The notes beneath the pieces were generated by a model. It was not told where the DNA came from. It saw nothing but the letters and a program-made list of their open reading frames with translations, and ran no database searches. This document shows, in pieces, positions 28,895 to 60,749 of a stretch of 64,000 nt of DNA. The stretch is from contig OY762964.1 of NCBI GenBank assembly GCA_963667035.1, positions 448,001 through 512,000 of the forward strand, in the 5' to 3' direction. This DNA comes from Candidatus Cloacimonadales bacterium (GTDB lineage Bacteria > Cloacimonadota > Cloacimonadia > Cloacimonadales > JAFGVF01). A program made the translations under genes and the position numbers. Numbering within the stretch: position 1 is the first letter of the stretch; each line of letters opens with the position of its first letter.

Positions 28895-31800
28895 TTATTT
28901 AAGTAACATCATTTTCTTTGTCAAGACTTTGTCGTTTGTTTTTAAACGATAGAAATATACACCTGATGATACTTGTTTATTATTCTTGTCACTACCATTC
29001 CAAACTACAGAATGATACCCCGGCTTGAGATGTTTATTAACAAGTGTAGCTACTTTCTGCCCTCTTATATTGTAGATATTTAGTTTTACATCAGATTCAC
29101 TGGAAATGTTATAGTTTATTGTTGTTGTTGGATTAAACGGGTTCGGATAATTTCCTACCAATGAAGTATAGAGGGGTATTAAACCTTGCTCTAAATCTTC
29201 TTTCTTAAATGAGATGTAAGCAAATCCTTCATTACAATCATTAGTAGTTAGTTTTTTAGCGATGAATTTCTTCTCAATTCTATCCATAACAGCATATTTT
29301 TCAATTGCTTTCTTATCTCCTTTATAAGAGTAAGCTAGTTGAAAGGAAAGCTCTTCTCCCAATAAAGAAGGGTCATCAACAACATAAGCTTTCAGAATTA
29401 CATCATTGGATTTTATTACTTCAGCTCCTTTGCATTCGTTATCCACAAACACTGCAATCTCTATTGGTTTATCTCCTTCACCAATTTCATCCATATCAAA
29501 AGAACAAAGTATTGGATAATAATCTTTCTGTTCCTCATAATCAAAACAAACTGGTAGCTCAACAACAGTTTCATTTACACCAGTTCCATTTGAATCCCAA
29601 GTAATTCCAATCGGCTCTGTATCTGTTGGATCTTCAGGCTCATGCTTTGCCCAACAAACAAAATCAACCGCTTCACCGTAGTTCAACGTAGGTGGATTAG
29701 TACCGATATATGAACTAATCCAAGTAGTTTTAGCTCCACTTTGTTGAGTGTTCAAATATGATAAGTTTATAGCTGACCAATATCTAGTTTTTATAGCAGC
29801 CATTTGGTCTAGAATATCTTCATCAATTGCTTCAAAGATTGTTTGACCGTCTCTAAGATAATACCCAACTAAAGTAGATTTTGTATTATCATTGATTCCC
29901 GGTCTGAATATTTTCATGTTCAAATTATTACTGTTATTGTTGGATGTACCGTTTCTAAATCCATCAAACTCAAGGAATACTGCATCAGGTGCTTCTTCTG
30001 TAAGTTTTAACTTATATCCTTTGATAGTATCAATAGATTCAGTTAGAGATGTCCATTCATTGTTTTGAACATCCCATCCTATCTGACCTGGCTCATCATA
30101 GCTCCAAAAAATTTCATCTAAGATTTCTGAATCTTCTTCGAAAGGAAGACTATCTATTCTATCTCCGTTAGTATTATAATGATACATTTGCACACCAAAA
30201 ACATACTCTGCTTGGGAGTAAGAACTAGCTCTTAACTCATCAATTCCGGGAAGGCAAATCCAATTATAGCCATCCTTGTCTAGTTCTAAGACACTATTCT
30301 CAACAGTAAATTCTCCGTTATTATCAATTGGTAAGTAAGGAATTGCACCTATATCTGGTCGCGACATATCTCTATCTCTATCTTCATAGTCACCTAATGG
30401 GTTTCCATTTCCAAGGAGTAGTAGTTCTTCATACCACAAAATCCCATCTCCATCCATATCTGGATTACCAGAATTAATACAAGGTGATTTTTCTGTAGCT
30501 GTCCAGCTTGGAGTATAATTTATGTCTATGAGCGGATTTATATCAATTAGATTATTTTGTGTAATCAGTGGATGAGTAGTATTTCCAATAAAATCCCAAT
30601 TGTCTGTATTGTTATTAAACAAGCAAAAGTTTACATTGAGTTCCTCAGTTGTTGTAATTGTGCCATCATTCCAATTAATGGCATTCCCGATTATATTAGA
30701 AAAAATACTATTATTTATAGTAATCCCTGGACCTTTTTCATGTACAAACCCATCACCTGTAATATTTAACAAAGTATTATTATTGAAAGTAAAGTAGTTG
30801 TTTGGATTCATTACAGTTCCATTATATACAGATTTTAAGCCAAATATTTCTATGCCATCAAGTACGTTATGTGTAAACTCAAAGTTGTTTCTGCCAAAGT
30901 AGTCATTGAAAAGAACAGCACCATCTGACTGGTTCTTAAACATATTGTGAGATATTTCAATCTTTGTGTAAGTCTCTTCTGATAACTCATTACTTATTAG
31001 TTCATCGTAAATTTTCATTGATGGAGTCTCAGCATCATAAGTTCTATTAAACATACAGTTAGTAATTCTTAAATTATCTAAACTACCGGTTCTTCTAATA
31101 TAAATATCCGCAGCTACATTGATATCATAGTTATTTGTAAAAGTGCAATAGTCAAAGTTGATTGAGCCAGTTCCTATATCATTATTGACGATTACACCAC
31201 CACCACTATTTGAACAAATTTAAGATGACCCACCTACAGATGTATCTGAGAAATTGCTAATAAAAGAACAGCTCTGAACATCTATAGAACCAGATAATGC
31301 CAATGCACCTCCACCAATAACTGAATCACAATGATTATAGTCGAATATACAGTCCTGAAACATAGGAGCCTCTTCTTGGTCAACCACACCTTGAACAAAC
31401 ACAGCTCCTCCAACTCCAATACAATTATCTGAAAGATCATAATTATTACATCCTGAATAGTTTGTGCTATTGTTGAAAAAATAACATCTATCAACAATAG
31501 GAGAAGCTCCATTCAATAGTGTTATTGCAGGTCCTCTCGTATAAGTTTGGCATTCTTCAAATCTAAATCCCTCAATCGTGTCGGTGTTATCAATTCCTTC
31601 CCAATCAAGCTTTATTGCATGGTTTGTGCTAGTTAACTCAGCAGGGTCTTGCTGATTAGTAAATAGACGAATATGTTTATGTCTCCACGATAGGTTGCTT
31701 ACCTGGTATGCACTACCGTCTTGATTTGGAAAGACTACAACAATTCCATCATCTTGAATACGATCAATTGCTTCTTGAATAGACTGATAGTCATAAGGTA

Positions 31801-35013: not shown

Positions 35014-36486
35014 CTAACTGAGTCCAAACCCAAACATGCGAGATTTTGCTCTATTTTCGTGTAAATTGGAGTTGAAAATCATGTAATTGATGATAAATTT
35101 TGCTATTAATTTCCCTAATTTACCTTTGAAAAGGTATTTTACGAGTTTCTTGATATTTTGCACAATAGCTGTTAGATAAGCTTGTTCTCGAACTCGCTCT
35201 ATTCCTCGATATTTTGCATATCGGTAGCCATGAAGTTGCTTTGCATTGGCAAAGCTTCTCTCAATGGTTTCTTTTCTCCTCTTGTATATCTCTTTCCCAC
35301 ATAATGTTAACCTATTCTTGTGGATTATCTCTTTGCTCTCTTCCCAGACATGACGAGTGATTACTTTTTGAGAAGACTTACTTTCTGTACATTTACTTAG
35401 CATTGGACAATTCTTGCATTCACTAGGATTCGACTTGTATTCTTTATAGCCATCACGGCTCGTTGTTCTATAATTTAACTCTTTATTACATGGACAAAGG
35501 TAAACATCCTTCCGGGAATTATATGTAAATTTGTTCTTTTTAAATAGACCTTTCTTACCTCCCTGTCTTTTGTAGCCAAGGACTCCCATAATATTCATAT
35601 CTACCAGTTGCTTACAAATGCTAATTGTATCATATCCTGCATCAAGCCCTGCTGCCTGAACATTAAAACCATAAACCTTTTGTTGGAACTGTAACCTGTC
35701 AATATAGCAGGTGCCATCATTTACATTGCCGGGAGTAATGTGAACATCGGTTATATAGTTCGTTTTATGGTCGACTGTCCTATGATCTAAGTAGAAGAAG
35801 CCTTGAGGCTTTCTATCACGGGTCATAAAGCCACTATCGGGATCTGTTGTGCTAGACTTGATATTTTTTACTTTAGGTGATGCTCCTCCTTTACGATTGT
35901 TATCCTTAGGAGGTAAAGGTTTCTTACCATGAGCCTTCCGATCTTCATCAACGCTTGTGTTAAGATCTTCCAAGTAACTCTTGGAGGATACCTCAACTTC
36001 AATATCCTCGAATTTACCTTTATTAGCATTTGCCTTTAGATGGGTTGAGTCGCTATAAAGTATCTTCCCATCAACTAATCCATGTTTAATGCCTAACTTC
36101 ACTATATCTATAAAAATCTCTTCGAATACGCTGCTATCATTAAATCGCCTTCTACGATTTTGACTGAAGACTGAGTGATGAGGTACTTTATCAGTTAGTC
36201 CAAAGCCTAAGAACCAACGATAAGCCACATTGACCTCTATCTCTTTGACCAATTGTCTTTCCGAGCGAATACCGAATAGATAGCCAATAAAAAGCATTTT
36301 GAAAAGAGTAATAGGATGAATTGGAGGACGATCGGTAGTAGAACAATACAAATGCGCTGTTCTATCTAAAATGAATGAAAAATCTATTACGCTATCGATT
36401 TTCCTTAGTATGTGATCTACCGGTACTAAATCATCTATTATTACAAACTCCATTTGGGACTGTGTGTCAGAAACTTTTTTAAGCAT
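35014..36486 (-). CDS. IS1182-family DDE transposase
   Basis: DDLVPVDHILRKID, LFGIRSERQL, VAYRWFLG, DSTH, DAGY, C-x-C zinc-like insert, RKETIERSF, RYAKYRG. Confidence 0.93.
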   Translation of the reverse strand: MLKKVSDTQSQMEFVIIDDLVPVDHILRKIDSVIDFSFILDRTAHLYCSTTDRPPIHPITLFKMLFIGYLFGIRSERQLVKEIEVNVAYRWFLGFGLTDKVPHHSVFSQNRRRRFNDSSVFEEIFIDIVKLGIKHGLVDGKILYSDSTHLKANANKGKFEDIEVEVSSKSYLEDLNTSVDEDRKAHGKKPLPPKDNNRKGGASPKVKNIKSSTTDPDSGFMTRDRKPQGFFYLDHRTVDHKTNYITDVHITPGNVNDGTCYIDRLQFQQKVYGFNVQAAGLDAGYDTISICKQLVDMNIMGVLGYKRQGGKKGLFKKNKFTYNSRKDVYLCPCNKELNYRTTSRDGYKEYKSNPSECKNCPMLSKCTESKSSQKVITRHVWEESKEIIHKNRLTLCGKEIYKRRKETIERSFANAKQLHGYRYAKYRGIERVREQAYLTAIVQNIKKLVKYLFKGKLGKLIAKFIINYMIFNSNLHENRAKSRMFGFGLS

Positions 36487-36562
36487 AACCACCTCTAATT
36501 ATGATGGTTTAAGTATAATATTTGGAGAAATCTGTCAATGATTGATGTTCTTATTTTAAGCT

Positions 36563-40825: not shown

Positions 40826-41455
40826 ATGAAAGTCGTAGCCATTAATGGGAGTCCAAAATCGGAAGGGAACACAGCTTATGCCATTACTGTAGTGCTAAAA
40901 GAGTTGGAAAGCAAAGGAATTGAAACAGATGTTATACATATAGGTAATTCAACAGTTAAGGGATGTACCGGATGTGGTATGTGCTCTAAAAACAAGGATG
41001 AGAGATGCATTATTGATGACGATGTAAATATATGGATTCAACAAATGAAGAAAGCTGACGGCTTACTCTTTGCTTCACCTGTTTACTACTCGGGAATAAA
41101 TGGAACAATGAAAGCATTTATGGACAGAGTTTTCTATATAGGGGGAGCTAATGGAGGATTTTTTAGACATAAGGTAGGAGCTTCAATTGTTGCCGTTAGG
41201 AGATCAGGTGGTCTTCCCGCTTTTCAACAACTAAATACTTACCTTAATTATGCTGAAATGATGATACCTTCATCCAATTATTGGAATGTTATATATGGAA
41301 GAGTTCCCGGTGATGCCAGGAAAGATGAAGAAGGTAATCAAATCATGCGAGTACTGGGTCGTAACATGGCATGGCTGATGCAGATGATTGACAGTACCAA
41401 AGACGAAATCCCAAAACCAATTCCCGAAAAGAAGATATACACACATTTCTTATAA
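40826..41455 (+). CDS. Iron-sulfur flavoprotein / NADPH-dependent FMN reductase family
   Basis: INGSPK..GNT; CxxCxxC-x7-C; ASPVYY; VRRSG; SNYWN. Confidence 0.9.
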   Translation: MKVVAINGSPKSEGNTAYAITVVLKELESKGIETDVIHIGNSTVKGCTGCGMCSKNKDERCIIDDDVNIWIQQMKKADGLLFASPVYYSGINGTMKAFMDRVFYIGGANGGFFRHKVGASIVAVRRSGGLPAFQQLNTYLNYAEMMIPSSNYWNVIYGRVPGDARKDEEGNQIMRVLGRNMAWLMQMIDSTKDEIPKPIPEKKIYTHFL

Positions 41456-41869: not shown

Positions 41870-41896
41870 AAGGCTGTTGACTTGGTCAACAGCCTT
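41870..41896. terminator. Bidirectional terminator hairpin
   Basis: AAGGCTGTTGAC-TTG-GTCAACAGCCTT between convergent genes. Confidence 0.8.
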
Positions 41897-41902
41897 TATG
41901 TT

Positions 41903-42316
41903 TTACCATTCAATCGGTTCATCAATATTACTCCCTGAAGCCATGAATGTTACTTCATCGGGAATAATCTCAACTAATCCGAATCCGGGATGATCAGGAC
42001 TATCAAAATACCCGGAAATGAATGTAGCAATATTCCATATTGTTTTTCGATCTGCTTTATCATTGCTATATATAGCCTTACCCTTAACTCGGGCAAAACA
42101 TTCCTCGTTGTTTTGTTTCAAAGCGATACTCAAGGCTACTTTAGGATGATTGAGAATCTGTTTAGTTTTAGCATCTTCAATACCGGTAGCTAACCAGAAT
42201 CTATTTTCATGCTTTATGAGTATCATTGGACGTACTCTTGGATACTCTCCATCATAAGTTGCAAACCAGCAACGTTGCATTGGCTCAAACAATTGCAATA
42301 GCTCTTTTTTATTCAT
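41903..42316 (-). CDS. Pyridoxamine 5'-phosphate oxidase-like FMN-binding split barrel (general stress protein 26-like)
   Basis: FATYDGEYPRVRPM, KTKQILNHPKV, YFDSPDHP. Confidence 0.8.
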   Translation of the reverse strand: MNKKELLQLFEPMQRCWFATYDGEYPRVRPMILIKHENRFWLATGIEDAKTKQILNHPKVALSIALKQNNEECFARVKGKAIYSNDKADRKTIWNIATFISGYFDSPDHPGFGLVEIIPDEVTFMASGSNIDEPIEW

Positions 42317-42355: not shown

Positions 42356-43156
42356 CTAAAACTTGTAGCTATCCCTGACAGTAGCAAATTTAATTATATT
42401 CCTTCTGAAGTTTGGAACAACCAAGGCATTATTTTTTTCAAAGTAGTAAATATCAGCAGGTCCATCTTGATGAGTTATGAACTTCAGTTTATTTTTAAAG
42501 CTCTTATCAAATACATAAACGGTACCATCCTCCCAGCATGATATATAGAAATAACCGTTCCGGTCTCTAGTTATACCATCAAGATATGAAAGCTTGGTTG
42601 TTGTAACTGTGCTCACTATTCCTGTATCTGTGTCTATGTAGTAGATAGGTGAATCAGTAGTATTACATACAACGTAAAGTCTTTGATCTTCCTCTGTATA
42701 GTATACCCCGTTGGGAGCAGTAATATCTTTAGTCAGTATCATACTATATCCGCTTCTTATATCTATTCGCAGTATATTGTCTTTCTCTGTGTCCGACACA
42801 TATAGATAGTTTTGATTATCCCAAACAATATCGTTTAGAAAACCAGAGTCTGGTATTAGTATTTGGACTTCCAGTTTAGAAGTATTGAGGTTTATACCAA
42901 ATACTCCTCCGTCTGCTGCACAATATAAAAGAGAATCAACTCTTGTTATGCCTCGTACTGATATTAAGTCTTGATTGAAAATCTCTTCATTTCCTTCCAT
43001 ATCTGATTTGATTATTGCACCGCCACTCTTGTTTGAGCTTAAAAAAGCATCCATCTCTTTAATATAAACAATGCTTTCTGGTAGTTTTAACAATGTTTCA
43101 ATTGAATTTAAACTACCTATTACAATACACAGTATTAGTAGGACTTTTAGTTTCAT
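42356..43156 (-). CDS. Secreted SMP-30/gluconolactonase-like beta-propeller
   Basis: Signal peptide; PES, FLNDI, LYVSDT, PNG, LDGI, GPADI repeats. Confidence 0.8.
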   Translation of the reverse strand: MKLKVLLILCIVIGSLNSIETLLKLPESIVYIKEMDAFLSSNKSGGAIIKSDMEGNEEIFNQDLISVRGITRVDSLLYCAADGGVFGINLNTSKLEVQILIPDSGFLNDIVWDNQNYLYVSDTEKDNILRIDIRSGYSMILTKDITAPNGVYYTEEDQRLYVVCNTTDSPIYYIDTDTGIVSTVTTTKLSYLDGITRDRNGYFYISCWEDGTVYVFDKSFKNKLKFITHQDGPADIYYFEKNNALVVPNFRRNIIKFATVRDSYKF

Positions 43157-43163
43157 AGATAAC

Positions 43164-43946
43164 CTATCTTAGTGTTATTCTCTTACTTATTGTTTCATTT
43201 CCTGATTTAAGATTTAGGAGATAGATTCCCGAAGGTAATTTGTGACCTTTTGAATCAACTCCATTCCACACAAGTTTATCTGAGTCTATGATTTTTCTTT
43301 TATACAATAACTGACCTTTAACGTTGGTGACTGTTAATAAAGCATTCTTATTATCATTCTTGATAGAGATATTAAGAGGCTCGTTGTTCGAAAAGGGATT
43401 AGGATAACATTCCAATAACGAGGTTAGTTCTGACACGTTACCCGAATTGGAAGTAAGAGGGTTCATTACGATATTAACTCTTTCTGCATCATTAGAACCA
43501 ATAGTTATGTTTTCAATCGTGTAAGAATTGAAGTCGGGATGTGTCGTAGTTATTGAATAAGAACCTTGGGTAACTTCTAATGAGTAATCTCCATAGAAAT
43601 CGGTTGTAGCACTATCAATTCCATTGCTTACTGTTACCCCGTTTATTGCGAAGTTAGTTTCCGAATTGCAGACTCTACCAAAAATATAAGAACGACCGTC
43701 AGCTTCATAAATAGCAGACCTTGGACAGTTATGGAGGCAATCTCCACATCCGTCACAGAGATTCTGGTCTATTCGTAAGCACATTAACTCAACATCTGGT
43801 TGAATTGCTCCGGTGGGGCATGAATTCATGCAGCGACCGCACATATCACAGGCTGCAGGATTTATCTGAAAGTTTATTCTGCTGATTCCATGCAAAATAG
43901 CAGTAAAAACAACTATAAGAATAATGACTTTTACTATCCTTTTCAT
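43164..43946 (-). CDS. Signal peptide + 2x[4Fe-4S] dicluster ferredoxin + carboxypeptidase-regulatory-like domain + T9SS-type CTD
   Basis: MKRIVKVIILIVVFTAILHG; CDMCGRCMNSCP and CDGCGDCLHNCP; TTDFYGDYSL; CYPNPF...NVKGQ...WNG.DSKG...SGIYL. Confidence 0.85.
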   Translation of the reverse strand: MKRIVKVIILIVVFTAILHGISRINFQINPAACDMCGRCMNSCPTGAIQPDVELMCLRIDQNLCDGCGDCLHNCPRSAIYEADGRSYIFGRVCNSETNFAINGVTVSNGIDSATTDFYGDYSLEVTQGSYSITTTHPDFNSYTIENITIGSNDAERVNIVMNPLTSNSGNVSELTSLLECYPNPFSNNEPLNISIKNDNKNALLTVTNVKGQLLYKRKIIDSDKLVWNGVDSKGHKLPSGIYLLNLKSGNETISKRITLR

Positions 43947-44033
43947 AATCATCACCTTTATATTTATTGCGATCATTACAAATTAGATGAAGTTTGTGGT
44001 TCAAAGTCAAGTATAAACTTGTTTAAGAATTAG

Positions 44034-44948
44034 TTACATTTCTTTCTTAAGATAATCAGCTACTTGAAGAGCGGCTTGAGTATGACCATAGTGATTCCAG
44101 TGTTTATCATGTGAGAACTGCCATTCTTTGAGGTTGTTACATCTTAATTTAAGGCTTTTGAAATTAAACTCATTTGCTAAACTTTCATATCTACTATCTG
44201 TGTCCGGATGAAACACAAGAATTATTCTATCTAAATCAAAGTTTAGCTCAATATATTTCATCATTGAATATAGGTCTTCTTTATATTTTGAGAATTCATC
44301 TATCGGTTCGTTAGTATTATTTTCATTAGTTATGGGTCTATGTTTCCAGAATCTTAGATAACTGTAGTAAAGGAGTTTACTTGAATAAAGAATCTTTTTT
44401 AGTTGCGGAGATTTCAATTTAACTTCTGCAAGATCATTCGCTTTAGGATTATATTGTAATACATCTTTTTTTCTTCTAATTGTAGTTAAGCTTTCACTAA
44501 AATCTTTCTCTTCAACATATATTAGATGCTTATCGAATTTACATATCTCATTATCAATTTTTTCCGCTATTGCAAATGCTTCAATGAATGAGGCTCCAGA
44601 TCTACCTGCCTCAAAAAAACTTATCCACGAAAGCTCATTATCTAATATATATCCCTGATGAAATCTAATGGGATTCATTAAATTCTCAATGTAGGAATCA
44701 CCAATAATGGATACTTTTGTTTCTTTACTTAAATCAGATACTCCAGTCCATCCATATTTATTAACAACCCACTTTTCCTTTGCATTTTTAAAGTAGCCTG
44801 CTTGATTCGGGATATAGTCTTGAATGCCAGATGAATCTATTCTTCTCCTAGGAACATCCGAAGTAAGCCTGAAAACTCTTATGATAATCTCCGTAATTAA
44901 ACAAAATAGTAATGAAAAAAGTAAAAGTGTTCTTATAAATTTTATCAT
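44034..44948 (-). CDS. SGNH-like (AlgJ/AlgX-type) O-acetyltransferase partner
   Basis: N-terminal TM; IIGDSY; DKHWNHYGH; directly downstream of the MBOAT gene. Start taken at ATG 44948. Confidence 0.6.
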   Translation of the reverse strand: MIKFIRTLLLFSLLFCLITEIIIRVFRLTSDVPRRRIDSSGIQDYIPNQAGYFKNAKEKWVVNKYGWTGVSDLSKETKVSIIGDSYIENLMNPIRFHQGYILDNELSWISFFEAGRSGASFIEAFAIAEKIDNEICKFDKHLIYVEEKDFSESLTTIRRKKDVLQYNPKANDLAEVKLKSPQLKKILYSSKLLYYSYLRFWKHRPITNENNTNEPIDEFSKYKEDLYSMMKYIELNFDLDRIILVFHPDTDSRYESLANEFNFKSLKLRCNNLKEWQFSHDKHWNHYGHTQAALQVADYLKKEM

Positions 44949-44956
44949 AATCAACC

Positions 44957-46396
44957 TTAAAATTGGAAATAAATGAATGCCTGTTCTTGACCGGTAAAAG
45001 CAAAGATTGCAAAAATAATGATGTAACTTACAATCCATCTTAAACTGTAATGAATTTTAGAAACACCTTCAATAGCAAACTCCTTCTCTCTTCCAATCCA
45101 TTCAATCAATGTAAAACAAACAAGAACAATTAATAATGGGTGAGAGTGCTCAGGAATAGTTGGTATACTTACAATCGAGGATGAAAATATTCTTGATAAG
45201 TATCCTAGGGCTATAGAAATACTTTCAGCTCTAAAAAAAATCCATGCAATAGTCACTAACATGAATGTGTTTAGAATCTGAAAGAATTCACGTATATCAG
45301 GCAGTATTTTGTTTTTAGCAACGACTTCGATGTACTTCCGATTATAACCAATCAACATTGATGGTAAAAAGTAGATAGCATGTAACAATCCCCATACTAT
45401 AAATGTCCAGTTAGCTCCATGCCAAAATCCACTAACAAGAAAAATAATGATTGTATTCCTAATCTTAGTAACCATTCTCCCTCTACTTCCTCCGAGGGGG
45501 ATATATAGATAATCTCTGAACCATGTAGAAAGTGAGATGTGCCATCTCCTCCAAAACTCTGCAATGTTCCTTGAAAAATATGGTGTGTTGAAGTTCCTCA
45601 TCAACTTAAATCCAAGTAATTTTGAGGAGCCTATGGCAATATCGGAATATCCTGAGAAATCACCGTAAATCTGAAAAGAAAAGAGAATAGCTCCTATCAG
45701 TAAGGTTGAACCTGATAGTGTTTGATATCGGGAGAAGATTTGATTTACTATTTCTGCACAATTATCTGCAATAACAACTTTTTTAAACAGTCCCCAAAGA
45801 ATTTGCCTTACACCATTTAACGAATTCTGATAGTCAAATACTCTTTTCTTACAAAATTGTGAAAGTAGGTTTGAAGCCCTTTCTATTGGACCTGCAACTA
45901 ACTGAGGAAAGAAACTAACAAAAGATAGGAATTCTATTAAGTTCTTATGAGGTTCTATACGCTTTCTAAATACATCTATCGAGTAGCTTAGAGTTTGAAA
46001 TGTGTAGAAGCTTATTCCAACAGGAAGTATTACATTGATTCTTTTTGAGGAGATTTCTTTCCCTAAAATCGAAAAAACACCATCGAAAGAATCAATAAAG
46101 AAATTGTAGTACTTGAAAACCATTAACAAACCGATATTAACAAAAATGCTAATAAATAAGTAAAACTTTCTTTTTCTCATATCGCTTTCTTGACCAAGTA
46201 GAAGTCCAATTGAATAATCAACAACTGAACTAAAAGCAATTAATGAAAGAAATCTATAGTCCCACCATCCATAAAATATGTAGCTAACAATCAAAAGCCA
46301 TATATTCTATAATTTATAGCTTTTCATTCCAAGAATCCAATAGATAGCGAACACTATAGGAAAGAAAATAGCATATTCCAAAGAGTTAAAAAACAA
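44957..46396 (-). pseudogene. AlgI-type MBOAT O-acyltransferase with an in-frame TAG at codon 30 (46307-46309)
   Basis: TTG start after GGAGG: MFFNSLEYAIFFPIVFAIYWILGMKSYKL*NIWLLIVSY...; body has LPVGISFYTFQ, YGDFSGYSD, FWRRWHISLSTWFRDY, GFWHGA. Confidence 0.75.
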
Positions 46397-51816: not shown

Positions 51817-54243
51817 TTACTTCACTACCATCATCTTTCCAATGGCTTCACTACCTTCACAGCTGACTTTATAGAAGTATATCCCCGATGCTACAGATTT
51901 ACGATTATTATCCTTGCAATCCCATACTTGTGAGTAATACTCACCGGACTGCTTATCCTCGGATGATAAACCTGCACTTCTTACTAACTGTGAGAAACTC
52001 TGAGTTATCTTAATATCTCTAACCTTCTGACCTTTGATATTGTAAATCTCTAAGGTTGGTCTCTCTATAGGTTTCTTTGGTAATGTAAACTCAATGAATG
52101 CTACTTTCCCATTATTACCGTTAGGTGTTACCGGATTAGGAAAATGAGATACTTTTATTGCAGAAGGAGGGGTGGGGGCTGTTTCATTGTAAATATCTAC
52201 AGTAGGATTATATTCATGTGCTCCCATATCTATTATATTACCCCATACTCTCGGATTACCCGTTATATCCAATGCCGGTAAGTTCATACCTAGTGTATCA
52301 GGTGTTCCTGCATTCACACATGGAGAATTCTCTGTTAGTTGTACCCATCTTGTATCACCAACAGGTATATCACCTTCTACATCTCCACGAAACATCGGAT
52401 TTGCATCAATATTATTTACTCCCCACAATACATTATTGTTGGGATTATCAGCTCCCGGTACTCCTGAAATTCCGTTTCTTACAAGACTGTAATCTATATC
52501 AATATTCGACCATAATGGATTAGTATCTCCTTCTGCTGGAACCCATACACCCATTTCATAAGCTCCGTCAGGATTATAAATAATGCTGTTTCTGATAGTA
52601 TAATCCCCTCCAAATCTAGTCATTGCTATTGGACCTGTATTATGAGCAATTGTCATATTATTAACAAAACACTCATTATGATAAGATGATAACAGAACCA
52701 TTGGCATCCAACTGGTAAAAGATGAAGAGTTGTTATATACAAGTAGATTATTGAGCTCTATATTTCCAACAGTTTCGCTATAACTTGGATTACTATACTG
52801 AAAAATTGTTCCAACTCGATCAACGGTAGTATTTGAGATTACTATATTTGTTGCAGTAACATCACTTCTATCTAACATAACTAATAATGATGTGTTTTCA
52901 TCGTTAACGGTATAAATGTCATTAACCAGAAAATTGTTTATCACTAAATTGTCACACTCATAGAGCATTATACAATTAACACTTTCTTCATAGTTTACAA
53001 TATCCTTAGCGATAATGTTTTCTATTATACTATTATCACAAAATAGGAGACTTAATCCGCATTTTTCATTATAATTATCTGAAAAAATAATGTCATGAAT
53101 ATATAGATTGTTACACCAATTTATTCCCAAGGAGGGCGGGGCGTCAGATTCAACAAATGAAGACTTAAATCGTCCAATCTCAATGTGCTCAGCAGTCTTT
53201 ATATAAATACAGTTTGAATCATATACATCTCCAATAACTACATCTTCATTAGTATTGCCAGCCCCAAGTAACTTAGTGTGTGATTGCATTGATATAGGAA
53301 AGAATTGATTATTGTATACGTTATATGTACCGGGAAGTAGATGGATGGTATTAGGATTCAAACTATTCGGTTGAACAATCCTATTTGCATAAGCAATTGT
53401 TTGTAAAGCAGTTTCGGGAGTAAGACCATCATTGTTATCATTACCAAGAGGAGAGACATATAAATCAGAGTCAATCTGTATGATATATGGATTTAACACT
53501 GATACGTGAGGTGGCGGTGTTTCATTGCTAACAAATGAAATGAAATATCCGTCTGGTTCATCTATAATAATGCTGAGAGTATCAAGAATAATATCAGTAC
53601 TTATAGAAAACTGTAGATAAATATCCTGCACAGCACTATAATTATTGTAAATACTATTTAAGTTGATGGAATCAAAGTATACAGTTCCTTCATGTACTCC
53701 AAGACCACCGCCCCAACCTTTAGCTATGTTGTTTCTTATAATATTGCCAGATAAAGAGATATAGCTATTCTCATACACTCCTATACCCCCAGAATGACTA
53801 GAAGTACTATTCTGAATAATGGAATTATTTAATTCTAGCTGACTGTTATCGTGAACAAGAATGGCTCCACCATAATCATAGTTTTCATTGTAATGATACC
53901 CAATACCGTTTTCCATTAGAAATCCATTAATAATTACATTTGAATTTGTTTCTATCCTAATGCAATTTGACAGAAAGTTAGCATCAATTATTGTGTTTAG
54001 GACATCGTCCCAGTTATTAGTTATCTCATATTGACTTTGTAGTGTTACCGTCTTCTCAAGAATGTCAATATGTTCAAAATATCTACCGGGATAAACATGA
54101 ATGATATCACCATTATTTGCATCATCAACTGCCGATTGGATAGAAGTATATGAATGAGTACCGTCCAGTGATACTTCTCTTAAAGTTGAGTTAAGAAAAC
54201 ATAACGAGACAATAAATACTGTAAGTAATAAAACTCTTCTCAT
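51817..54243 (-). CDS. Secreted beta-helix CTD protein, paralog C
   Basis: Same architecture as A/B; leader MRRVLLL shared with D. Confidence 0.85.
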   Translation of the reverse strand: MRRVLLLTVFIVSLCFLNSTLREVSLDGTHSYTSIQSAVDDANNGDIIHVYPGRYFEHIDILEKTVTLQSQYEITNNWDDVLNTIIDANFLSNCIRIETNSNVIINGFLMENGIGYHYNENYDYGGAILVHDNSQLELNNSIIQNSTSSHSGGIGVYENSYISLSGNIIRNNIAKGWGGGLGVHEGTVYFDSINLNSIYNNYSAVQDIYLQFSISTDIILDTLSIIIDEPDGYFISFVSNETPPPHVSVLNPYIIQIDSDLYVSPLGNDNNDGLTPETALQTIAYANRIVQPNSLNPNTIHLLPGTYNVYNNQFFPISMQSHTKLLGAGNTNEDVVIGDVYDSNCIYIKTAEHIEIGRFKSSFVESDAPPSLGINWCNNLYIHDIIFSDNYNEKCGLSLLFCDNSIIENIIAKDIVNYEESVNCIMLYECDNLVINNFLVNDIYTVNDENTSLLVMLDRSDVTATNIVISNTTVDRVGTIFQYSNPSYSETVGNIELNNLLVYNNSSSFTSWMPMVLLSSYHNECFVNNMTIAHNTGPIAMTRFGGDYTIRNSIIYNPDGAYEMGVWVPAEGDTNPLWSNIDIDYSLVRNGISGVPGADNPNNNVLWGVNNIDANPMFRGDVEGDIPVGDTRWVQLTENSPCVNAGTPDTLGMNLPALDITGNPRVWGNIIDMGAHEYNPTVDIYNETAPTPPSAIKVSHFPNPVTPNGNNGKVAFIEFTLPKKPIERPTLEIYNIKGQKVRDIKITQSFSQLVRSAGLSSEDKQSGEYYSQVWDCKDNNRKSVASGIYFYKVSCEGSEAIGKMMVVK

Positions 54244-54262
54244 AGTTCCTGCTTTTTATATA

Positions 54263-54345
54263 TACCGGGTACGCGGACATCCTTGTCCGCAATCTTTGCA
54301 GGCAAGATGCCTGCGAACAAAGAAGGGTAGGATATAGCTGCCCCC
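54263..54345. repeat. Three-hairpin REP-like element, copy 4
   Basis: GGGTACGCGGACATCCTTGTCCGC; GCAGGCAAGATGCCTGC; GGGTAGGATATAGCTGCCC. Confidence 0.85.
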
Positions 54346-54358
54346 AATATCTATAGTT

Positions 54359-54393
54359 TTATTTGAGTAGCATCATTTTCTTTGTCAAGATTT
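54359..54393 (-). pseudogene. Orphan CTD 3' end (ILTKKMMLLK*)
   Basis: Identical to 26276-26310. Confidence 0.75.
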
Positions 54394-54436
54394 CCTCTTC
54401 TATAAAAAATATTGTGTAAATTATAAACATTTGCGA

Positions 54437-56869
54437 CTATTTCACCACCATCATCTTTCCAATCGCCTCACTTCCTTCACAGCTGACTTTATAGAAGTAT
54501 ATCCCTGATGCTACAGATTTACGATTATTATCCTTGCAATCCCATACTTGTGAGTAATACTCTCCGGCTTGCTTATCCTCGGATGATAAACCTGCACTTC
54601 TTACTAACTGTGAGAAACTCTGAGTTATCTTAATATCTATAACCTTTTGCCCTCTGATATTATAAATCTCTAAGGTTGGTCTCTCTATAGGTTTCTTTGG
54701 TAATGTAAACTCAATGAATGCTACTTTCCCATTATTACCGTTAGGTGTTACAGGATTAGGAAAATGAGATACTTGTATCGAAGAAAGTGGGGTTGGTGCT
54801 GTTTCATTGTAAACATCTACAGTAGGATTATATTCATGTGCTCCCATATCTATTATATTACCCCATACTCTCGGATTACCCGTTATATCCAATGCCGGTA
54901 AGTTCATACCTAGTGTATCAGGTGTTCCGGTATTCACACATGGAGAATTCTCTGTTAGTTGTACCCATCTCGGGTCTCCAACAGGTATATCACCTTCTAC
55001 ATCTCCACGGAACATCGGATTTGCATCAATATTATTTACTCCCCACAATACATTATTATTAGGATTATCTGCTCCCGGTACTCCTGAAATTCCGTTTCTT
55101 ACAAGACTGTAATCTATATCAGTATTCGACCATAATGGATTAGTATCTCCACTTGCCGGAGTCCAGACACTCATTTCACATCCTCCTTCCGGATTATGAA
55201 TTATACTGTTTCTGATAGCATAATCTCCTCCAAATCTTGTGATTGCTGTGGGACTTGTATTGTTTGCAATTGTCATATTATTGAGAAGACATTCATTATG
55301 ATAGGTAGAGAAGTTAAACATAGGCATATGAGCCCAATAATAAGCAGCAGTATTATTATATGCTATGAAATTACTTAATTCAAGGTTACCATATGTATAA
55401 CTGTAACTCGGATTAGAATATTGGAAGATTATACCACTTCCATAAGTTGTGCAATTTGAGATTATCATATTGTTCACAGTAACATCACTTCTGGAAAATG
55501 AAACACAATGATGAAATGCATCATAATTTGTATTTGTCACATTGTTGACAATTACGTTGCTAAAATTGATATTATCACATTCATATGTTTTTATGCAAAT
55601 TAGTCTATCAATATTGTTTTGTATATTTTTTATTGTTACATTTTCAATCAAACAATTAGAACTAGAGCTCAAATTTATTCCAGGAATATAATTGTAGTTG
55701 GTCTCAAACATCATATCATGAAGATATAATCTATTACAACTCCCTACACCTAATGTTGATTCTGTCCCGGCTTGAGAGAATGTAAATCTAATCTTGCTAA
55801 TTTCAACATTTTCAACCATGTATAGTTTAACACTATTCATACCATATATATCCCCAATGGTCACTTCTTCAATCATACTACCTGTACCAAGTAACTTAGT
55901 GTGTGATTGCATTGATATAGGAAAGAATTGATTATTGTATGTATTATATGTACCGGGAAGTAGATGAATGGTATTAGGATTCAAACTATTCGGTTGAACA
56001 ATCCTATTTGCATAAGCAATTGTTTGTAATGCCGTTTCGGGAGTAAGACCATCATTGTTATCATTACCAAGAGGAGAGACATATAAATCTGCATCAATTT
56101 GTGTTAGCCAACTGTTTTGAGCTGAAACAGCAGGTGGACTTGAGCCATCATCATGATAGTAGGAGACAAAGTAACCGTCTGGCTCATCCAATGTGATGCT
56201 TAATGTATCAAGAATAATATCTGTACTTGTAGAGAACTGTAAATATATATCCTGGACAATACTATAATTATTGTATATACTATTCAAATTAGATTGATCA
56301 AAGATTATGTCACCATTTTTGACTCCAAGACCACCACCCCAATAAATAGCCCTGTTATTTCTTATTGTATTGTTTGAGAGAGAAACAGTGCTACCATTAT
56401 TACATAAAACTCCACCATTATACATCCCATAATTATTTTCAATAATGCAGTTTACTATGTCTACATCACACTCGTTATTAATAGAAATACCGCCACCATA
56501 ACTTACATCATCTCCATAAGAAAAACCAATCCCATTAGTTAATACAAATCCATTTAACAGAACTGTGCAATTGTCCTCAATCCTAATGCAGTTTGATTGG
56601 GAGTCTGCATCAATTATTGTGTTTAGGACATCGTCCCAGTTATTAGTTATCCCATATTGGCTTCGTAGTGTTACTGTCTTCTCAAGAATGTCAATATGTT
56701 CAAAATATCTACCTGGATAAACATGAATGATATCACCATTATTCGCATCATCGACTGCCGATTGGATAGATATATATGAATGAGTACCGTCCAGTGATAC
56801 TTCTCTTAAAGTTGAGTTAAGAAAACATAACGAGACAATAAATACTGTAAGTAATAAAACTCTTCTCAT
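54437..56869 (-). CDS. Secreted beta-helix CTD protein, paralog D
   Basis: Same architecture as A-C. Confidence 0.85.
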   Translation of the reverse strand: MRRVLLLTVFIVSLCFLNSTLREVSLDGTHSYISIQSAVDDANNGDIIHVYPGRYFEHIDILEKTVTLRSQYGITNNWDDVLNTIIDADSQSNCIRIEDNCTVLLNGFVLTNGIGFSYGDDVSYGGGISINNECDVDIVNCIIENNYGMYNGGVLCNNGSTVSLSNNTIRNNRAIYWGGGLGVKNGDIIFDQSNLNSIYNNYSIVQDIYLQFSTSTDIILDTLSITLDEPDGYFVSYYHDDGSSPPAVSAQNSWLTQIDADLYVSPLGNDNNDGLTPETALQTIAYANRIVQPNSLNPNTIHLLPGTYNTYNNQFFPISMQSHTKLLGTGSMIEEVTIGDIYGMNSVKLYMVENVEISKIRFTFSQAGTESTLGVGSCNRLYLHDMMFETNYNYIPGINLSSSSNCLIENVTIKNIQNNIDRLICIKTYECDNINFSNVIVNNVTNTNYDAFHHCVSFSRSDVTVNNMIISNCTTYGSGIIFQYSNPSYSYTYGNLELSNFIAYNNTAAYYWAHMPMFNFSTYHNECLLNNMTIANNTSPTAITRFGGDYAIRNSIIHNPEGGCEMSVWTPASGDTNPLWSNTDIDYSLVRNGISGVPGADNPNNNVLWGVNNIDANPMFRGDVEGDIPVGDPRWVQLTENSPCVNTGTPDTLGMNLPALDITGNPRVWGNIIDMGAHEYNPTVDVYNETAPTPLSSIQVSHFPNPVTPNGNNGKVAFIEFTLPKKPIERPTLEIYNIRGQKVIDIKITQSFSQLVRSAGLSSEDKQAGEYYSQVWDCKDNNRKSVASGIYFYKVSCEGSEAIGKMMVVK

Positions 56870-56888
56870 AGTTCCTGCTTTTTATATA

Positions 56889-56970
56889 TACCGGGTACGC
56901 GGACATCCTTGTCCGCAATCCTTGCAGGCAAGATGCCTGCGAACAAAGAAGGGTAGGACATGCCTACCCT
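56889..56970. repeat. Three-hairpin REP-like element, copy 5
   Basis: GGGTACGCGGACATCCTTGTCCGC; GCAGGCAAGATGCCTGC; AGGGTAGGACATGCCTACCCT; all three stems perfect. Confidence 0.88.
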
Positions 56971-56986
56971 CTAACGATTATATTGT

Positions 56987-60109: not shown

Positions 60110-60749
60110 ATGAATCTCCAAAGGTTTAAATTAATAGAAAATTACAGACTATGTAATACATCAATAATAGAGATTAGGATTATCCAAATTAACAGAGATT
60201 CTATTTAATTGGATCCCTCATTGAGTAGATTCAAGAATCTATGTCATAATTACCCCCAATAATCAAAGCTTATTATAAGATTCCAGTTTTCACATAATCT
60301 AATAAATGGTTATAGAATATGTCATTGCATTTTTAATAACTAGTTCATTGATAGTCTATCTGGCAGTGCCAAAACTTTATATAATAAGTATATCTACTAC
60401 TAGTGATAATAAGAAATATTTATTAAATCCTAATTCTTAGTGCCAATGTTATATTATGAAAATATATGTGTCAAACAATTTTAATCTTATAAATAATAGC
60501 TAAAAACTAATATACTACCGGCAATCTCTGCTTACCCTAATTTTTCTCTATGACGACACCTGTTGATAACATGAACAATCATCTAAGAATAAATCTTTTT
60601 GGCTTCAGTGAATAAAATGAAGAAATAGACTGTGGGTTGTTACATAGTTAGTATATAGATTTTCCTTTATTATGATAAATGACTAACCAATGTAGTATAT
60701 CAACATGTACCAAGCTCAATCGATGGTAGCTTATCATTCTTCAAACCAA

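What the first reader, a model, noticed from the sequence alone, without database searches (positions are those of the whole stretch)
43164..43946. Signal-peptide 2x[4Fe-4S] ferredoxin fused to a T9SS-type sorting domain: candidate cell-surface electron carrier
Seen: a hydrophobic Sec-type leader with no twin-arginine motif, two complete CxxCxxCxxxCP motifs at the mature N-terminus, a beta-sandwich stalk and a CTD. Established: T9SS cargo crosses the inner membrane unfolded via Sec, while exported Fe-S proteins normally use Tat. Inference: this may be an extracellular ferredoxin that acquires clusters outside the cytoplasm. It could be relevant to interspecies electron transfer or redox sensing in a fermentative/syntrophic anaerobe whose ior and kor genes make reduced ferredoxin. 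It is closely followed by a secreted beta-propeller gene (7 nt gap) and an FMN-binding protein gene.
Basis: partly seen in the sequence, partly recalled or inferred. Interest (0 to 1): 0.8.

Follow-up and report, generated by a model that had tools for sequence, protein, structure and literature searches.

The report
Secreted surface ferredoxin without Tat
A bacterium with no folded-protein export system and no multihaem cytochromes encodes an iron-sulfur ferredoxin carrying both an ordinary secretion leader and a cell-surface sorting tag, which may be the outer end of an unknown way of passing electrons out of the cell.

Summary
Window 43164-43946 (-) encodes 260 aa: a hydrophobic leader (KR, no twin arginine), two CxxCxxCxxxCP motifs, a CarboxypepD_reg beta-sandwich and a T9SS type-A sorting domain.

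It is a conserved family, not an artefact. Full-length members occur in 27 of 232 Cloacimonadota genomes. Seven cysteines are invariant; the eighth is Asp in 3 of 24 members.

None of the 27 genomes has TatC. The own closed genome has SprA, PorU and PorV, about 130-150 sorting-domain proteins, DsbD but no DsbB or VKOR, and no ORF with two or more CxxCH.

In 15 genomes a short form without the sandwich lies inside an operon. That operon holds further leader- or lipobox-bearing 2x[4Fe-4S] ferredoxins, a predicted 20-strand outer-membrane barrel and a DsbD_2 membrane protein. The own genome has this operon 2.25 Mb away, without a sorting-domain member.

Best reading (0.42): a Sec-exported, T9SS-displayed ferredoxin that gains its clusters outside the cytoplasm. 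It would be the surface end of a cytochrome-free Fe-S electron route. Export, cluster binding and electron flow are inferred, not shown.

The link to the neighbouring beta-propeller gene is confined to one genus.

The parts
43164..43946 (-). Whole gene, 260 aa plus stop: leader, 2x[4Fe-4S] ferredoxin domain, CarboxypepD_reg sandwich and T9SS type A sorting domain. An alternative ATG lies at 43976.
43887..43946 (-). Leader, residues 1-20. The n-region is MKRIVK (K2, R3, K6; no RR) and the h-region is VIILIVVFTAIL. The likely signal-peptidase I site is after G20. This is inferred.
   Evidence: The residue 13 positions before the first Cys is A, G or S in 19 of 24 family members. The AF2 model shows a helix at residues 2-21.
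43704..43871 (-). Ferredoxin domain, residues 26-81, with a predicted (beta-alpha-beta)x2 pattern.
   Evidence: Fer4 at 4.2e-13; strands 26-28, 48-51, 56-59 and 79-81, helices 38-42 and 69-73, pLDDT about 90; best solved relative is the MvhB polyferredoxin 9sw6_G at 1.1e-23.
43815..43850 (-). Motif 1, CDMCGRCMNSCP (C33, C36, C39, C43, P44).
   Evidence: All four Cys are invariant in 24 sequences.
43722..43757 (-). Motif 2, CDGCGDCLHNCP (C64, C67, C70, C74, P75).
   Evidence: C64, C70 and C74 are invariant. C67 is Asp in 3 of 24 sequences (P0023, P0026, P0029).
43464..43685 (-). CarboxypepD_reg (transthyretin-like) beta-sandwich, residues 88-161. It is present in the long form only.
   Evidence: carboxypeptidase D transthyretin-like domain 5aq0_B, TM 0.88 on the target. 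The domain is absent from the 13 short-form rows of A2.
43167..43406 (-). T9SS type A C-terminal sorting domain, residues 181-260, preceded by a low-confidence linker at 168-174.
   Evidence: 34.5 bits at G000:C1:491176-491406.; hit to PorZ 5m11.
42356..43156 (-). Next gene, 7 nt downstream: a leader-bearing SGL (SMP-30/gluconolactonase/LRE-like) beta-propeller without a sorting domain. Probably co-transcribed. Adjacent to the ferredoxin gene only in this genus.
41903..42316 (-). PNPOx-like FMN-binding protein gene without a leader; last gene before the terminator.
41870..41896 (.). Hairpin of 12 bp with 6 G-C pairs, between the convergent PNPOx-like and rhodanese genes. Likely a two-way terminator that closes the ferredoxin / propeller / PNPOx unit.
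   Evidence: 4 terminator-like sites against 1.2 +/- 1.2 in shuffles.

Best explanation
The gene encodes a clostridial-type 2x[4Fe-4S] ferredoxin module that works outside the cytoplasm.

Proposed course, with every step inferred from sequence:
(1) The leader takes the unfolded chain through Sec, because the organism has no Tat. It is cut near G20/I21, 12 residues before the first cysteine.
(2) The eight cysteines stay reduced. DsbD is present, DsbB and VKOR are absent, and the habitat is anoxic. The domain takes up its two clusters after export, as c-type cytochromes take up haem. This happens either spontaneously from Fe(II) and sulfide or with help from operon-encoded factors such as the DsbD_2 membrane protein.
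(3) The folded holo-protein is passed through the T9SS translocon SprA. PorU removes the sorting domain and fixes the protein to the cell surface, where the transthyretin-like sandwich acts as a stalk.
(4) There it is the outermost relay of a haem-free Fe-S electron path. The other members are the leader-bearing and lipobox-bearing small ferredoxins, and a 20-strand outer-membrane barrel. These are encoded in one operon, which in 15 other genomes also contains the short form of this protein. The path would carry ferredoxin-level electrons to or from an external partner such as a mineral, sulfur, humics or a methanogen.

Shown here are the architecture, its conservation, the absence of Tat and of multihaem cytochromes, the presence of T9SS parts, and the operon context. 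Export, cluster binding, surface display and electron flow are not shown.
For: Architecture above curated cut-offs.

Family:
- phmmer over 1.84 billion representatives gave 8 proteins at 1e-30 or better. Among the 150 listed were 9 long-form and 13 short-form proteins; I fetched 31 of the 150.
- The profile found full-length members in 27 of 232 Cloacimonadota genomes, in 5 families.

Conservation typical of real Fe-S ferredoxins:
- 7 of 8 Cys are invariant in 24 sequences. The eighth is replaced only by Asp (3 of 24), the classic 3Fe/Asp-ligand variant; that label is recalled, not tested.
- The same Cys-to-Asp change occurs in one lipobox ferredoxin.
- Solved relatives are all cluster-binding modules: MvhB 1.1e-23, FwdF, HydB, RnfB.
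- The AF2 model has pLDDT 89.6 with a (beta-alpha-beta)x2 pattern.

No Tat:
- TatC is absent from the closed, 98.2% complete own genome, while the control rings in 11 of 14 genomes.
- TatC is absent from all 27 family-bearing genomes and is found in 8 of 232 overall.
- RR occurs in the leader of only 4 of 24 members.

T9SS:
- SprA 472.7 bits, PorU 615.5 bits against a cut-off of 420, PorV/PorQ family 250.5 bits against 90.
- 129 sorting-domain matches. 132 of 150 such ORFs have leaders like this one.
- T9SS is described as working after Sec export (PMC11285876, passages read).

Reducing envelope: a full DsbD lies next to the operon; no DsbB and no VKOR.

No ORF with two or more CxxCH among 5391 ORFs of the own genome.

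Operon:
- In all 12 short-form genomes examined, the gene lies beside other exported ferredoxin genes.
- By subtracting coordinates, 14 of 15 short-form genes lie 477-506 nt upstream of the barrel gene on the same strand. The fifteenth, G096, has only a partial barrel match.
- The barrel model has 20 strands and pLDDT 80.3.
- A NapH/MauN-like membrane Fe-S protein is in or beside the operon in G164 (66.6 bits, below cut-off). ORFs with like leaders and motifs are seen in G194 and G119 but were not scanned against families.
- The own genome holds the operon at C1:2742924-2749008.

A recent paper hypothesises direct interspecies electron transfer for Cloacimonadota and never uses the word 'cytochrome' (PMC13082233, passages read).
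Against: - No pathway is known that puts [4Fe-4S] clusters into proteins outside the cytoplasm. The accepted view is that exported Fe-S proteins go through Tat (abstracts in the listing).
- The window's long form is not linked to the operon. It lies 2.25 Mb away in G000 and on other contigs in G112 and G113.
- 9 of 12 long-form genomes have no match to the barrel profile at 1e-15. All 5 of those that I examined do hold paired small exported ferredoxins. The 2 that I fetched hold a variant operon with a divergent barrel.
- 72 of the 90 genomes with the barrel have no sorting-domain ferredoxin. A surface member is therefore not needed for whatever the operon does.
- Operon neighbours sometimes point to metal handling: CopA in G108, a Fur-family regulator and FeoB in G164.
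- Only 11 candidates per genome were scored, so those counts are lower bounds.
- The leader was not tested with SignalP.
- The tree of the family is unresolved, with 13 of 21 inner branches open.
- The structure models carry no cofactors.
Confidence: 0.42

Rival explanations
1. Iron, sulfide or metal handling rather than electron transfer. The exported cysteine-rich ferredoxin folds capture Fe-S clusters, Fe(II) or thiophilic metals at the surface and in the periplasm. The barrel and the DsbD_2 protein move them, either for uptake in sulfidic, iron-poor water or for detoxification.
For: - A Fur-family regulator and FeoB lie directly after the barrel gene in G164. A CopA-type P-type ATPase lies directly before the operon in G108.
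- The DsbD_2 protein has a conserved CxxxC(T/A)P in its first membrane helix in the 6 genomes read.
- The barrel model aligns best, by TM-score on the query, with the 22-strand barrels of TonB-dependent metal receptors (0.52-0.59).
Against: - These neighbours differ from genome to genome.
- No TonB box, plug domain or ABC importer was seen in the operon.
- Four to five separately anchored ferredoxin paralogues, plus a NapH-like membrane Fe-S protein, fit a relay better than a carrier.
- The conservation pattern, including Cys-to-Asp at one ligand, is that of redox ferredoxins.
Confidence: 0.2
2. A ferredoxin fold co-opted as a non-redox module. The cysteines bind Zn or nothing, and the protein is an ordinary T9SS surface protein such as an adhesin or coat component.
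For: - The sandwich and sorting domain are typical of many T9SS surface proteins. The nearest ESM Atlas clusters carry only those domains.
- No cluster-insertion route outside the cytoplasm is known.
Against: - 7 of 8 Cys are invariant down to 30% identity, with the canonical CP and AI positions kept.
- The only substitution seen is the ligand-competent Asp.
- The short form is little more than leader, ferredoxin and sorting domain, which leaves no other functional part.
- It is embedded among four other ferredoxin genes.
Confidence: 0.12
3. A periplasmic electron donor for the co-transcribed SGL beta-propeller enzyme (with the FMN protein). The sorting domain would be secondary.
For: - 7-nt gap to the propeller gene, no terminator-like site between the two genes (two weak 5-bp sites lie within the propeller gene), and one strong terminator after the PNPOx gene.
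- The same order is found in L001 and L002.
Against: - All three cases are in one genus. L003 and L004, L045 and all short-form loci lack the propeller.
- SGL-family enzymes are, from recall, hydrolases or lactonases with no need for electrons.
- The PNPOx-like protein has no leader, so it would sit in another compartment.
Confidence: 0.06
4. Not exported, or an artefact. The leader is only a membrane anchor or a mis-called start, or the fusion is an assembly error.
For: No export prediction program or experiment was available.
Against: - The same architecture occurs in 27 genomes, many of them closed.
- The gene lies in a single 3.10-Mb contig, and three public runs of one study hold all sampled words of the stretch. 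These may be the source sample, so they are not independent.
- The leader is conserved in all 24 members and matches those of 132 of 150 sorting-domain ORFs.
- A cytoplasmic sorting domain would make no sense.
Confidence: 0.03

Closest known systems
Clostridial-type 2x[4Fe-4S] ferredoxins and polyferredoxin modules (for example MvhB, PDB 9sw6_G; FwdF; HydB; RnfB)
   Same: - Two CxxCxxCxxxCP motifs, about 55 residues, with a predicted (beta-alpha-beta)x2 pattern.
- Significant sequence matches.
- The domain starts with Y-Q-I-N-P-x-x-C, like the N-terminus of clostridial ferredoxins (that N-terminus is recalled).
   Different: Those are cytoplasmic and have no leader and no sorting domain. This one has both, in a genome without Tat.
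NapG/NapH-type extracytoplasmic ferredoxins (quinol dehydrogenase of periplasmic nitrate reductase)
   Same: - A ferredoxin-type carrier outside the cytoplasm working with a NapH-family membrane Fe-S protein.
- A NapH/MauN-like gene lies in the related operon of G164. A copy is in the own genome at 71.9 bits, below cut-off.
   Different: - NapG is Tat-exported with four clusters (recalled) and stays in the periplasm.
- Here there is no twin arginine and no TatC, there are two clusters, and there is a T9SS tag.
Porin-cytochrome conduits (MtrCAB, PDB 6r2q; Geobacter Pcc)
   Same: - The same logic of parts: periplasmic carrier, lipid-anchored carrier, wide outer-membrane barrel and a carrier on the outer face.
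- MtrB appears among the barrel's fold matches (rank 24, TM 0.45).
- Geobacter OmbB is likewise predicted to have 20 strands (recalled).
   Different: - No haem motifs anywhere; Fe-S clusters take the place of haems.
- The surface member uses T9SS, not T2SS.
- There is no specific sequence or fold relation beyond being a barrel. No complex was tested.
c-type cytochrome maturation (Sec export, CcdA/DsbD reductant, cofactor added outside the cytoplasm)
   Same: An unfolded apoprotein exported by Sec, with cysteines kept reduced by a DsbD-family membrane protein. DsbD_2 is in the operon, and a full DsbD lies beside it in G000.
   Different: - The cofactor would be an Fe-S cluster, for which no extracytoplasmic insertion system is known.
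- No haem lyase is present.
- The parallel is my inference.
T9SS type A cargo such as Porphyromonas gingivalis HBP35 or RgpB
   Same: - N-terminal leader, Ig-like stalk domains and a C-terminal sorting domain above cut-off.
- The machinery is present in the genome.
- HBP35 is named as a haemin-binding cargo (PMC11285876, passages read).
   Different: - No T9SS cargo with a ferredoxin domain turned up in five full-text searches.
- No ESM Atlas cluster of 50 or more members combines Fer4 with the sorting domain among the hits shown.
Exported polyferredoxin of a Saprospiraceae genome (L009:7323-8396)
   Same: - Hydrophobic leader followed by P-Y-Q-I-D-P-x-x-C and ferredoxin motifs.
- Lipobox-like LINAC.
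   Different: - It carries D-R-R-L-F-I, a twin-arginine-like motif, and many more clusters.
- It comes from a phylum in which TatC is found (Bacteroides control).
- It has no sorting domain.
- This is a single case, read by eye.

Membership tests
Fer4 / 2x[4Fe-4S] bacterial-type ferredoxin domain | Two CxxCxxCxxxC(P) motifs, and a Pfam Fer4 match above the gathering score | tested here: met
   48.9 bits against 21.1, 2 stretches. Motifs at residues 33-44 and 64-75.
Fer4 / 2x[4Fe-4S] bacterial-type ferredoxin domain | Ligand cysteines conserved among relatives | tested here: met
   7 Cys invariant in 24 sequences. The eighth is Cys in 21 and Asp in 3.
Fer4 / 2x[4Fe-4S] bacterial-type ferredoxin domain | (beta-alpha-beta)x2 fold | tested here: inconclusive
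   the secondary-structure pattern fits at pLDDT about 90. The whole-model Foldseek search was dominated by the two sandwiches, so no ferredoxin-only structural match was obtained.
Fer4 / 2x[4Fe-4S] bacterial-type ferredoxin domain | Binds two Fe-S clusters | not testable with these tools
   Needs anaerobic purification or reconstitution with UV-vis and EPR.
T9SS type A cargo | C-terminal sorting domain above the curated cut-off | tested here: met
   TIGR04183 at 40 bits against 23. PF18962 at 31.8 bits against 27.
T9SS type A cargo | N-terminal Sec-type signal peptide | tested here: inconclusive
   Positive n-region and a 12-13 residue h-region (KD 3.51). A small residue at the likely -1 position in 19 of 24 members. 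The leader is like those of 132 of 150 sorting-domain ORFs. SignalP was not available.
T9SS type A cargo | T9SS machinery in the same genome | tested here: met
   SprA, PorU above cut-off, PorV/PorQ family above cut-off. The GldK/L/M/N-type motor genes were not searched.
T9SS type A cargo | Secreted and processed by PorU | not testable with these tools
   Needs proteomics or a secretion assay.
Tat substrate (the usual route for exported Fe-S proteins) | Twin-arginine motif in the leader | tested here: not met
   The leader has K-R. RR occurs in 4 of 24 family leaders.
Tat substrate (the usual route for exported Fe-S proteins) | TatC present in the genome | tested here: not met
   none in the closed own genome, control 11 of 14; none in the 27 family-bearing genomes.
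Porin-cytochrome extracellular electron conduit (Mtr/Pcc) | Multihaem c-type cytochromes (several CxxCH) | tested here: not met
   0 of 5391 ORFs have two or more CxxCH. It is therefore not a member; only the layout of parts is alike.
Porin-cytochrome extracellular electron conduit (Mtr/Pcc) | Carrier proteins bind in or on the barrel | not tested
NapG-type periplasmic ferredoxin | Tat leader and four cluster motifs (recalled definition) | tested here: not met
   Two motifs, no RR and no TatC.

The most novel reading that the evidence does not exclude
Cloacimonadota, which lack Tat and, in the one genome checked, multihaem cytochromes, build a haem-free electron wire across the cell envelope. 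It would be made of Sec-exported clostridial-type ferredoxins that receive their [4Fe-4S] clusters outside the cytoplasm. Its parts would be soluble and lipid-anchored ferredoxins on the periplasmic side, a 20-strand barrel through the outer membrane, and a T9SS-anchored ferredoxin on the cell surface. This would be a new kind of extracellular or interspecies electron transfer at ferredoxin potential. It would also be the first case of extracytoplasmic Fe-S protein maturation.
Probability: 0.3. Interest if true: 0.95.

Novelty: new variant of a known kind. Interest (0 to 1): 0.8.

Why it matters
Two textbook rules are at stake.

The first rule is that exported Fe-S proteins need Tat, because clusters are inserted in the cytoplasm. 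A conserved family of leader-bearing ferredoxins in genomes without TatC either breaks this rule or points to an unknown maturation route.

The second rule is that electron conduits across the outer membrane are built from multihaem cytochromes. Here the same layout of parts is built from ferredoxins, in an organism with no such cytochromes.

Cloacimonadota are abundant in anaerobic digesters. They are suspected of syntrophic propionate oxidation and of direct interspecies electron transfer, with no known hardware for it (PMC13082233, passages read). These genes give a concrete, testable candidate.

The protein is small, about 70 residues for the mature ferredoxin part, so biochemical tests are easy.

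Tried and rejected
- Complex prediction (barrel + lipobox ferredoxin + this ferredoxin domain) was never run. The queue was full on several tries and the tool was then declared unavailable. Binding is therefore untested.
- Expression: no RNA holder was listed.
- Foldseek on the whole model returned mostly beta-sandwich proteins: teneurins, DUF3823, carboxypeptidase D domain, PorZ. One two-part analogue appeared, the pyrogallol transhydroxylase beta subunit 4v4c_B. No ferredoxin-only match was obtained.
- Foldseek on the barrel returned only generic porins and TonB-receptor barrels. MtrB was at rank 24, which is not specific.
- ESM Atlas: the nearest clusters carry only sorting and sandwich domains, with a top score of 0.90. 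These are leads only.
- The family tree could not say whether the long form arose once. It needs at least 2 changes, and 13 of 21 branches are open.
- The promoter scan was at chance level: 11 found against 11.2 +/- 3.5.
- The NapH-like gene of G000 stands alone next to glmS and a LexA-like gene, so it gave no link.
- Rejected: assembly artefact, Tat export, disulfide-rich structural role (no DsbB or VKOR), and a functional tie to the propeller gene beyond one genus.
- Cluster look-up gave no names for the two closest homologues. One relative is called only 'ferredoxin' by its source.
Full report
**What is in the sequence.**
The minus strand carries an ORF at 43164-43976. The start that fits its relatives is the ATG at 43946, which gives 260 residues.

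Pfam finds four parts:
- two Fer4 stretches (48.9 bits, cut-off 21.1);
- CarboxypepD_reg at residues 88-161 (41.4 bits, cut-off 32.3);
- Por_Secre_tail at residues 181-257 (31.8 bits, cut-off 27).

NCBIfam's T9SS type A sorting domain scores 40 bits against a cut-off of 23. The motifs are CDMCGRCMNSCP (33-44) and CDGCGDCLHNCP (64-75). The leader is MKRIVKVIILIVVFTAILHG, with K-R and no R-R.

Seven nucleotides downstream starts a leader-bearing SGL-family beta-propeller gene. After it comes a PNPOx-like FMN-protein gene. A strong hairpin at 41870-41896 closes the unit. The ior and 2-oxoacid:ferredoxin oxidoreductase genes it mentioned are also in the window.

**It is a real, conserved family.**
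The word-indexed search found only two full-length relatives, at 53% and 36% identity. The exhaustive phmmer search gave 6725 proteins at E 0.001 or better, almost all through the sandwich or sorting domain, and 8 at 1e-30 or better. I fetched 31 of the 150 listed:
- 8 further long-form proteins (about 250-266 aa);
- 13 short-form proteins (174-201 aa) that lack the sandwich;
- one 100-aa fragment;
- 9 cytoplasmic polyferredoxins, which are irrelevant here.

In an alignment of 24 members (11 long, 13 short), C33, C36, C39, C43, C64, C70 and C74 are invariant. C67 is Cys in 21 and Asp in 3. From recall, Asp at that ligand position is the well-known variant of 3Fe or Asp-ligated ferredoxins. That pattern is what is expected of cluster ligands, not of disulfides.

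The ferredoxin part matches solved cluster-binding modules: MvhB 1.1e-23, then FwdF, HydB and RnfB. AlphaFold2 on the alignment gives pLDDT 89.6. The model has a leader helix, a (beta-alpha-beta)x2 unit, a sandwich, a floppy linker at 168-174 and the sorting sandwich.

A profile search of 232 Cloacimonadota genomes found full-length members in 27, counting the own genome:
- own family f1: 10 of 12;
- f3: 2 of 98, plus one cut at a contig end;
- f6: 6 of 8;
- f12: 6 of 62;
- f13: 3 of 9.

Twelve genomes hold the long form and 15 hold the short form. Only 11 candidates per genome were scored, so these are lower bounds. The four full-length loci from the species-level collection all carry Cloacimonadota or Cloacimonadales titles.

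Public sources give the proteins no name, or just 'ferredoxin'. No ESM Atlas cluster of 50 or more members shown combines Fer4 with the sorting domain.

**How it must leave the cytoplasm.**
The own genome is one 3.10-Mb contig, 98.2% complete. It has no TatC, while the same search rings in 11 of 14 control genomes. Across the phylum, TatC is found in 8 of 232 genomes, and none of the 8 is among the 27 that hold the family. Only 4 of 24 leaders contain RR. Tat is therefore excluded as the route.

The leader resembles that of other T9SS cargo in the same genome. Of 150 ORFs that match a sorting-domain profile, 132 have a 12-residue hydrophobic window of 2.5 or more (median 2.97). This protein has 3.51. 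The residue 13 positions before the first cysteine is A, G or S in 19 of 24 members, and the other five have one within a few residues. This fits signal peptidase I cleavage just ahead of the conserved Y-Q-I-N-P.

T9SS parts are present:
- SprA, 472.7 bits summed in a 2063-aa frame;
- PorU, 615.5 bits against a cut-off of 420;
- a PorV/PorQ-family gene inside the window;
- 129 sorting-domain matches.

T9SS is described as acting on cargo that first crossed the inner membrane by Sec and folded in the periplasm (PMC11285876, passages read). The genome has DsbD but neither DsbB nor VKOR. Exported cysteines are therefore expected to stay reduced.

**The context that changes the picture.**
A script over the own genome found 34 ORFs with CxxCxxCxxxC. 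Five have a strongly hydrophobic N-terminus: this gene and four adjacent genes at C1:2742924-2744946.

That second locus encodes, in order:
- a 184-aa leader protein with a C-terminal ferredoxin domain;
- a 358-aa lipobox protein with FN3 and a ferredoxin domain;
- an 83-aa leader-ferredoxin;
- an 86-aa lipobox-ferredoxin;
- a 420-aa protein with no family match;
- a DsbD_2 membrane protein;
- a full DsbD.

The 420-aa protein models as a 20-strand beta-barrel at pLDDT 80.3. It resembles porins and receptor barrels only in a general way.

In the 12 short-form genomes whose loci I read, the sorting-domain ferredoxin gene lies inside this same operon. It sits between the first ferredoxin gene and the two small ones. 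Subtracting coordinates shows that 14 of 15 short-form genes end 477-506 nt before the barrel gene on the same strand. In G096 the barrel match is partial.

G164 adds a NapH/MauN-like membrane Fe-S protein (66.6 bits, below cut-off). ORFs of the same look occur in G194 and G119, but I did not scan them against families.

The own genome has no ORF with two or more CxxCH. Whatever moves electrons outside its cytoplasm does not use multihaem cytochromes.

**Results that cut the other way.**
- The window's long form is not in the operon. It lies 2.25 Mb away in G000 and on other contigs in its two congeners.
- The barrel profile finds 90 of 232 genomes at 1e-15. All 15 short-form genomes match, but only 3 of 12 long-form genomes do.
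- I then examined 5 of the 9 long-form genomes without a barrel match. All 5 have paired small exported ferredoxins. The two that I fetched hold a variant operon with a four-motif ferredoxin, a 736-1058-aa lipobox protein with ferredoxin motifs at both ends, the two small ferredoxins and a divergent barrel. In G119 a DsbD_2 gene follows. The barrel count is thus an undercount. Four long-form genomes remain unexamined.
- 72 barrel-bearing genomes have no sorting-domain ferredoxin, so the surface member is an optional addition.
- Operon neighbours vary and sometimes suggest metal handling: CopA, or a Fur-family regulator with FeoB.
- The propeller and PNPOx neighbours of the window's gene recur only in L001 and L002, the closest relatives. 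They do not recur in L003 or L004, in L045, or in any short-form locus.

**Most likely mechanism.**
I read the protein as a Sec-exported apo-ferredoxin that acquires two clusters after export, is carried out by the T9SS, and is fixed to the cell surface. There it would end a chain of periplasmic and lipid-anchored ferredoxins that crosses the outer membrane through the 20-strand barrel.

The layout parallels porin-cytochrome conduits such as MtrCAB, but nothing here is homologous to them. The maturation logic parallels c-type cytochromes: Sec export, a DsbD-family reductant and cofactor addition outside the cytoplasm. Both parallels are mine.

That apo-ferredoxins self-assemble clusters from Fe(II) and sulfide in vitro is recalled knowledge. 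It makes unassisted maturation in sulfidic, anoxic habitats conceivable.

I put 0.42 on this whole chain. That the protein is exported and cluster-binding at all I hold more likely than not. The main rival is metal or Fe-S capture (0.2).

**Known or new.**
Five full-text searches and passages of four papers found no exported ferredoxin using T9SS or lacking Tat. The papers were PMC8542988, PMC13082233, PMC12590816 and PMC5566968. They also showed no ferredoxin-based outer-membrane conduit. Subscription journals and supplements were not seen.

Abstracts listed restate that cofactor-bearing exported proteins rely on Tat. A 2026 paper hypothesises direct interspecies electron transfer for Cloacimonadota on the basis of pili (PMC13082233).

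One exported polyferredoxin in a Saprospiraceae genome has a twin-arginine-like leader (DRRLFI) and a lipobox. That is the orthodox form of the same idea.

**What could not be done.**
- No RNA runs were listed.
- No signal-peptide predictor was at hand.
- Model coordinates could not be inspected for cluster geometry.

Noticed in passing
own genome G000:C1:2742924-2749008 (= L031:4924-11008), outside the window: An operon of four leader- or lipobox-bearing ferredoxin-domain proteins (184, 358, 83 and 86 aa), a predicted 20-strand outer-membrane barrel (420 aa, no family match), a DsbD_2 membrane protein with a conserved CxxxC(T/A)P in helix 1, and a full DsbD. The barrel profile matches one copy in nearly all of 90 of 232 Cloacimonadota genomes.
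   Followed up: partly
L052 (G117:C1:224001-240000) and L053 (G119:C1:3542001-3557000): A variant of that operon in GC-richer Cloacimonadales. It has a leader protein with four ferredoxin motifs, a 736-1058-aa lipobox protein with ferredoxin motifs at both ends, the two small ferredoxins and a divergent barrel. In G119 it also has DsbD_2 and a divergently transcribed NapH-like gene.
   Followed up: partly
L009:7323-8396 (Saprospiraceae MAG): A 357-aa polyferredoxin with a twin-arginine-like DRRLFI leader and a LINAC lipobox, followed by PYQIDPxxC. This looks like a Tat-routed lipoprotein counterpart of the Cloacimonadota exported ferredoxins.
   Followed up: no
window 2219-3271 (+) and 3292-6498 (+): A PorV/PorQ-family outer-membrane protein gene (250.5 bits, cut-off 90) lies directly upstream of a 1069-aa relative of a T9SS-dependent M6-like inactivated metalloprotease.
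   Followed up: no
window 6247-6480, 9346-9582, 20562-20801, 28907-29149, 56999-57241: Five further T9SS sorting domains fall inside this 64-kb window (converted from the genome coordinates). They end ORFs of 417 to 1647 aa. The three large ORFs at 51820-60121, two of about 810 aa and one of 1044 aa, gave no NCBIfam match at 1e-20.
   Followed up: no
window 35017-36492 (-): An IS1182-family transposase (459 bits). A near-identical 492-aa transposase ORF also appears at G000:C1:1995121-1996599 (L051), so the element is multicopy.
   Followed up: no
window 40826-41455 (+): An NADPH-dependent FMN reductase family protein with a CTGCGMC motif. A close homologue also lies near the ferredoxin gene in L001 (11265-11906), so it is a second flavoprotein kept in this neighbourhood within the genus.
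   Followed up: no
window 44034-46294 (-): An MBOAT-family membrane O-acyltransferase (445 aa) overlaps a 334-aa protein without a family match, directly upstream of the ferredoxin gene on the same strand. This may be a surface-polymer acylation pair.
   Followed up: no
window 60806-61231 (-): A methylmalonyl-CoA epimerase lies next to the 2-oxoacid:ferredoxin oxidoreductase genes. This fits the propionate metabolism proposed for the phylum.
   Followed up: no
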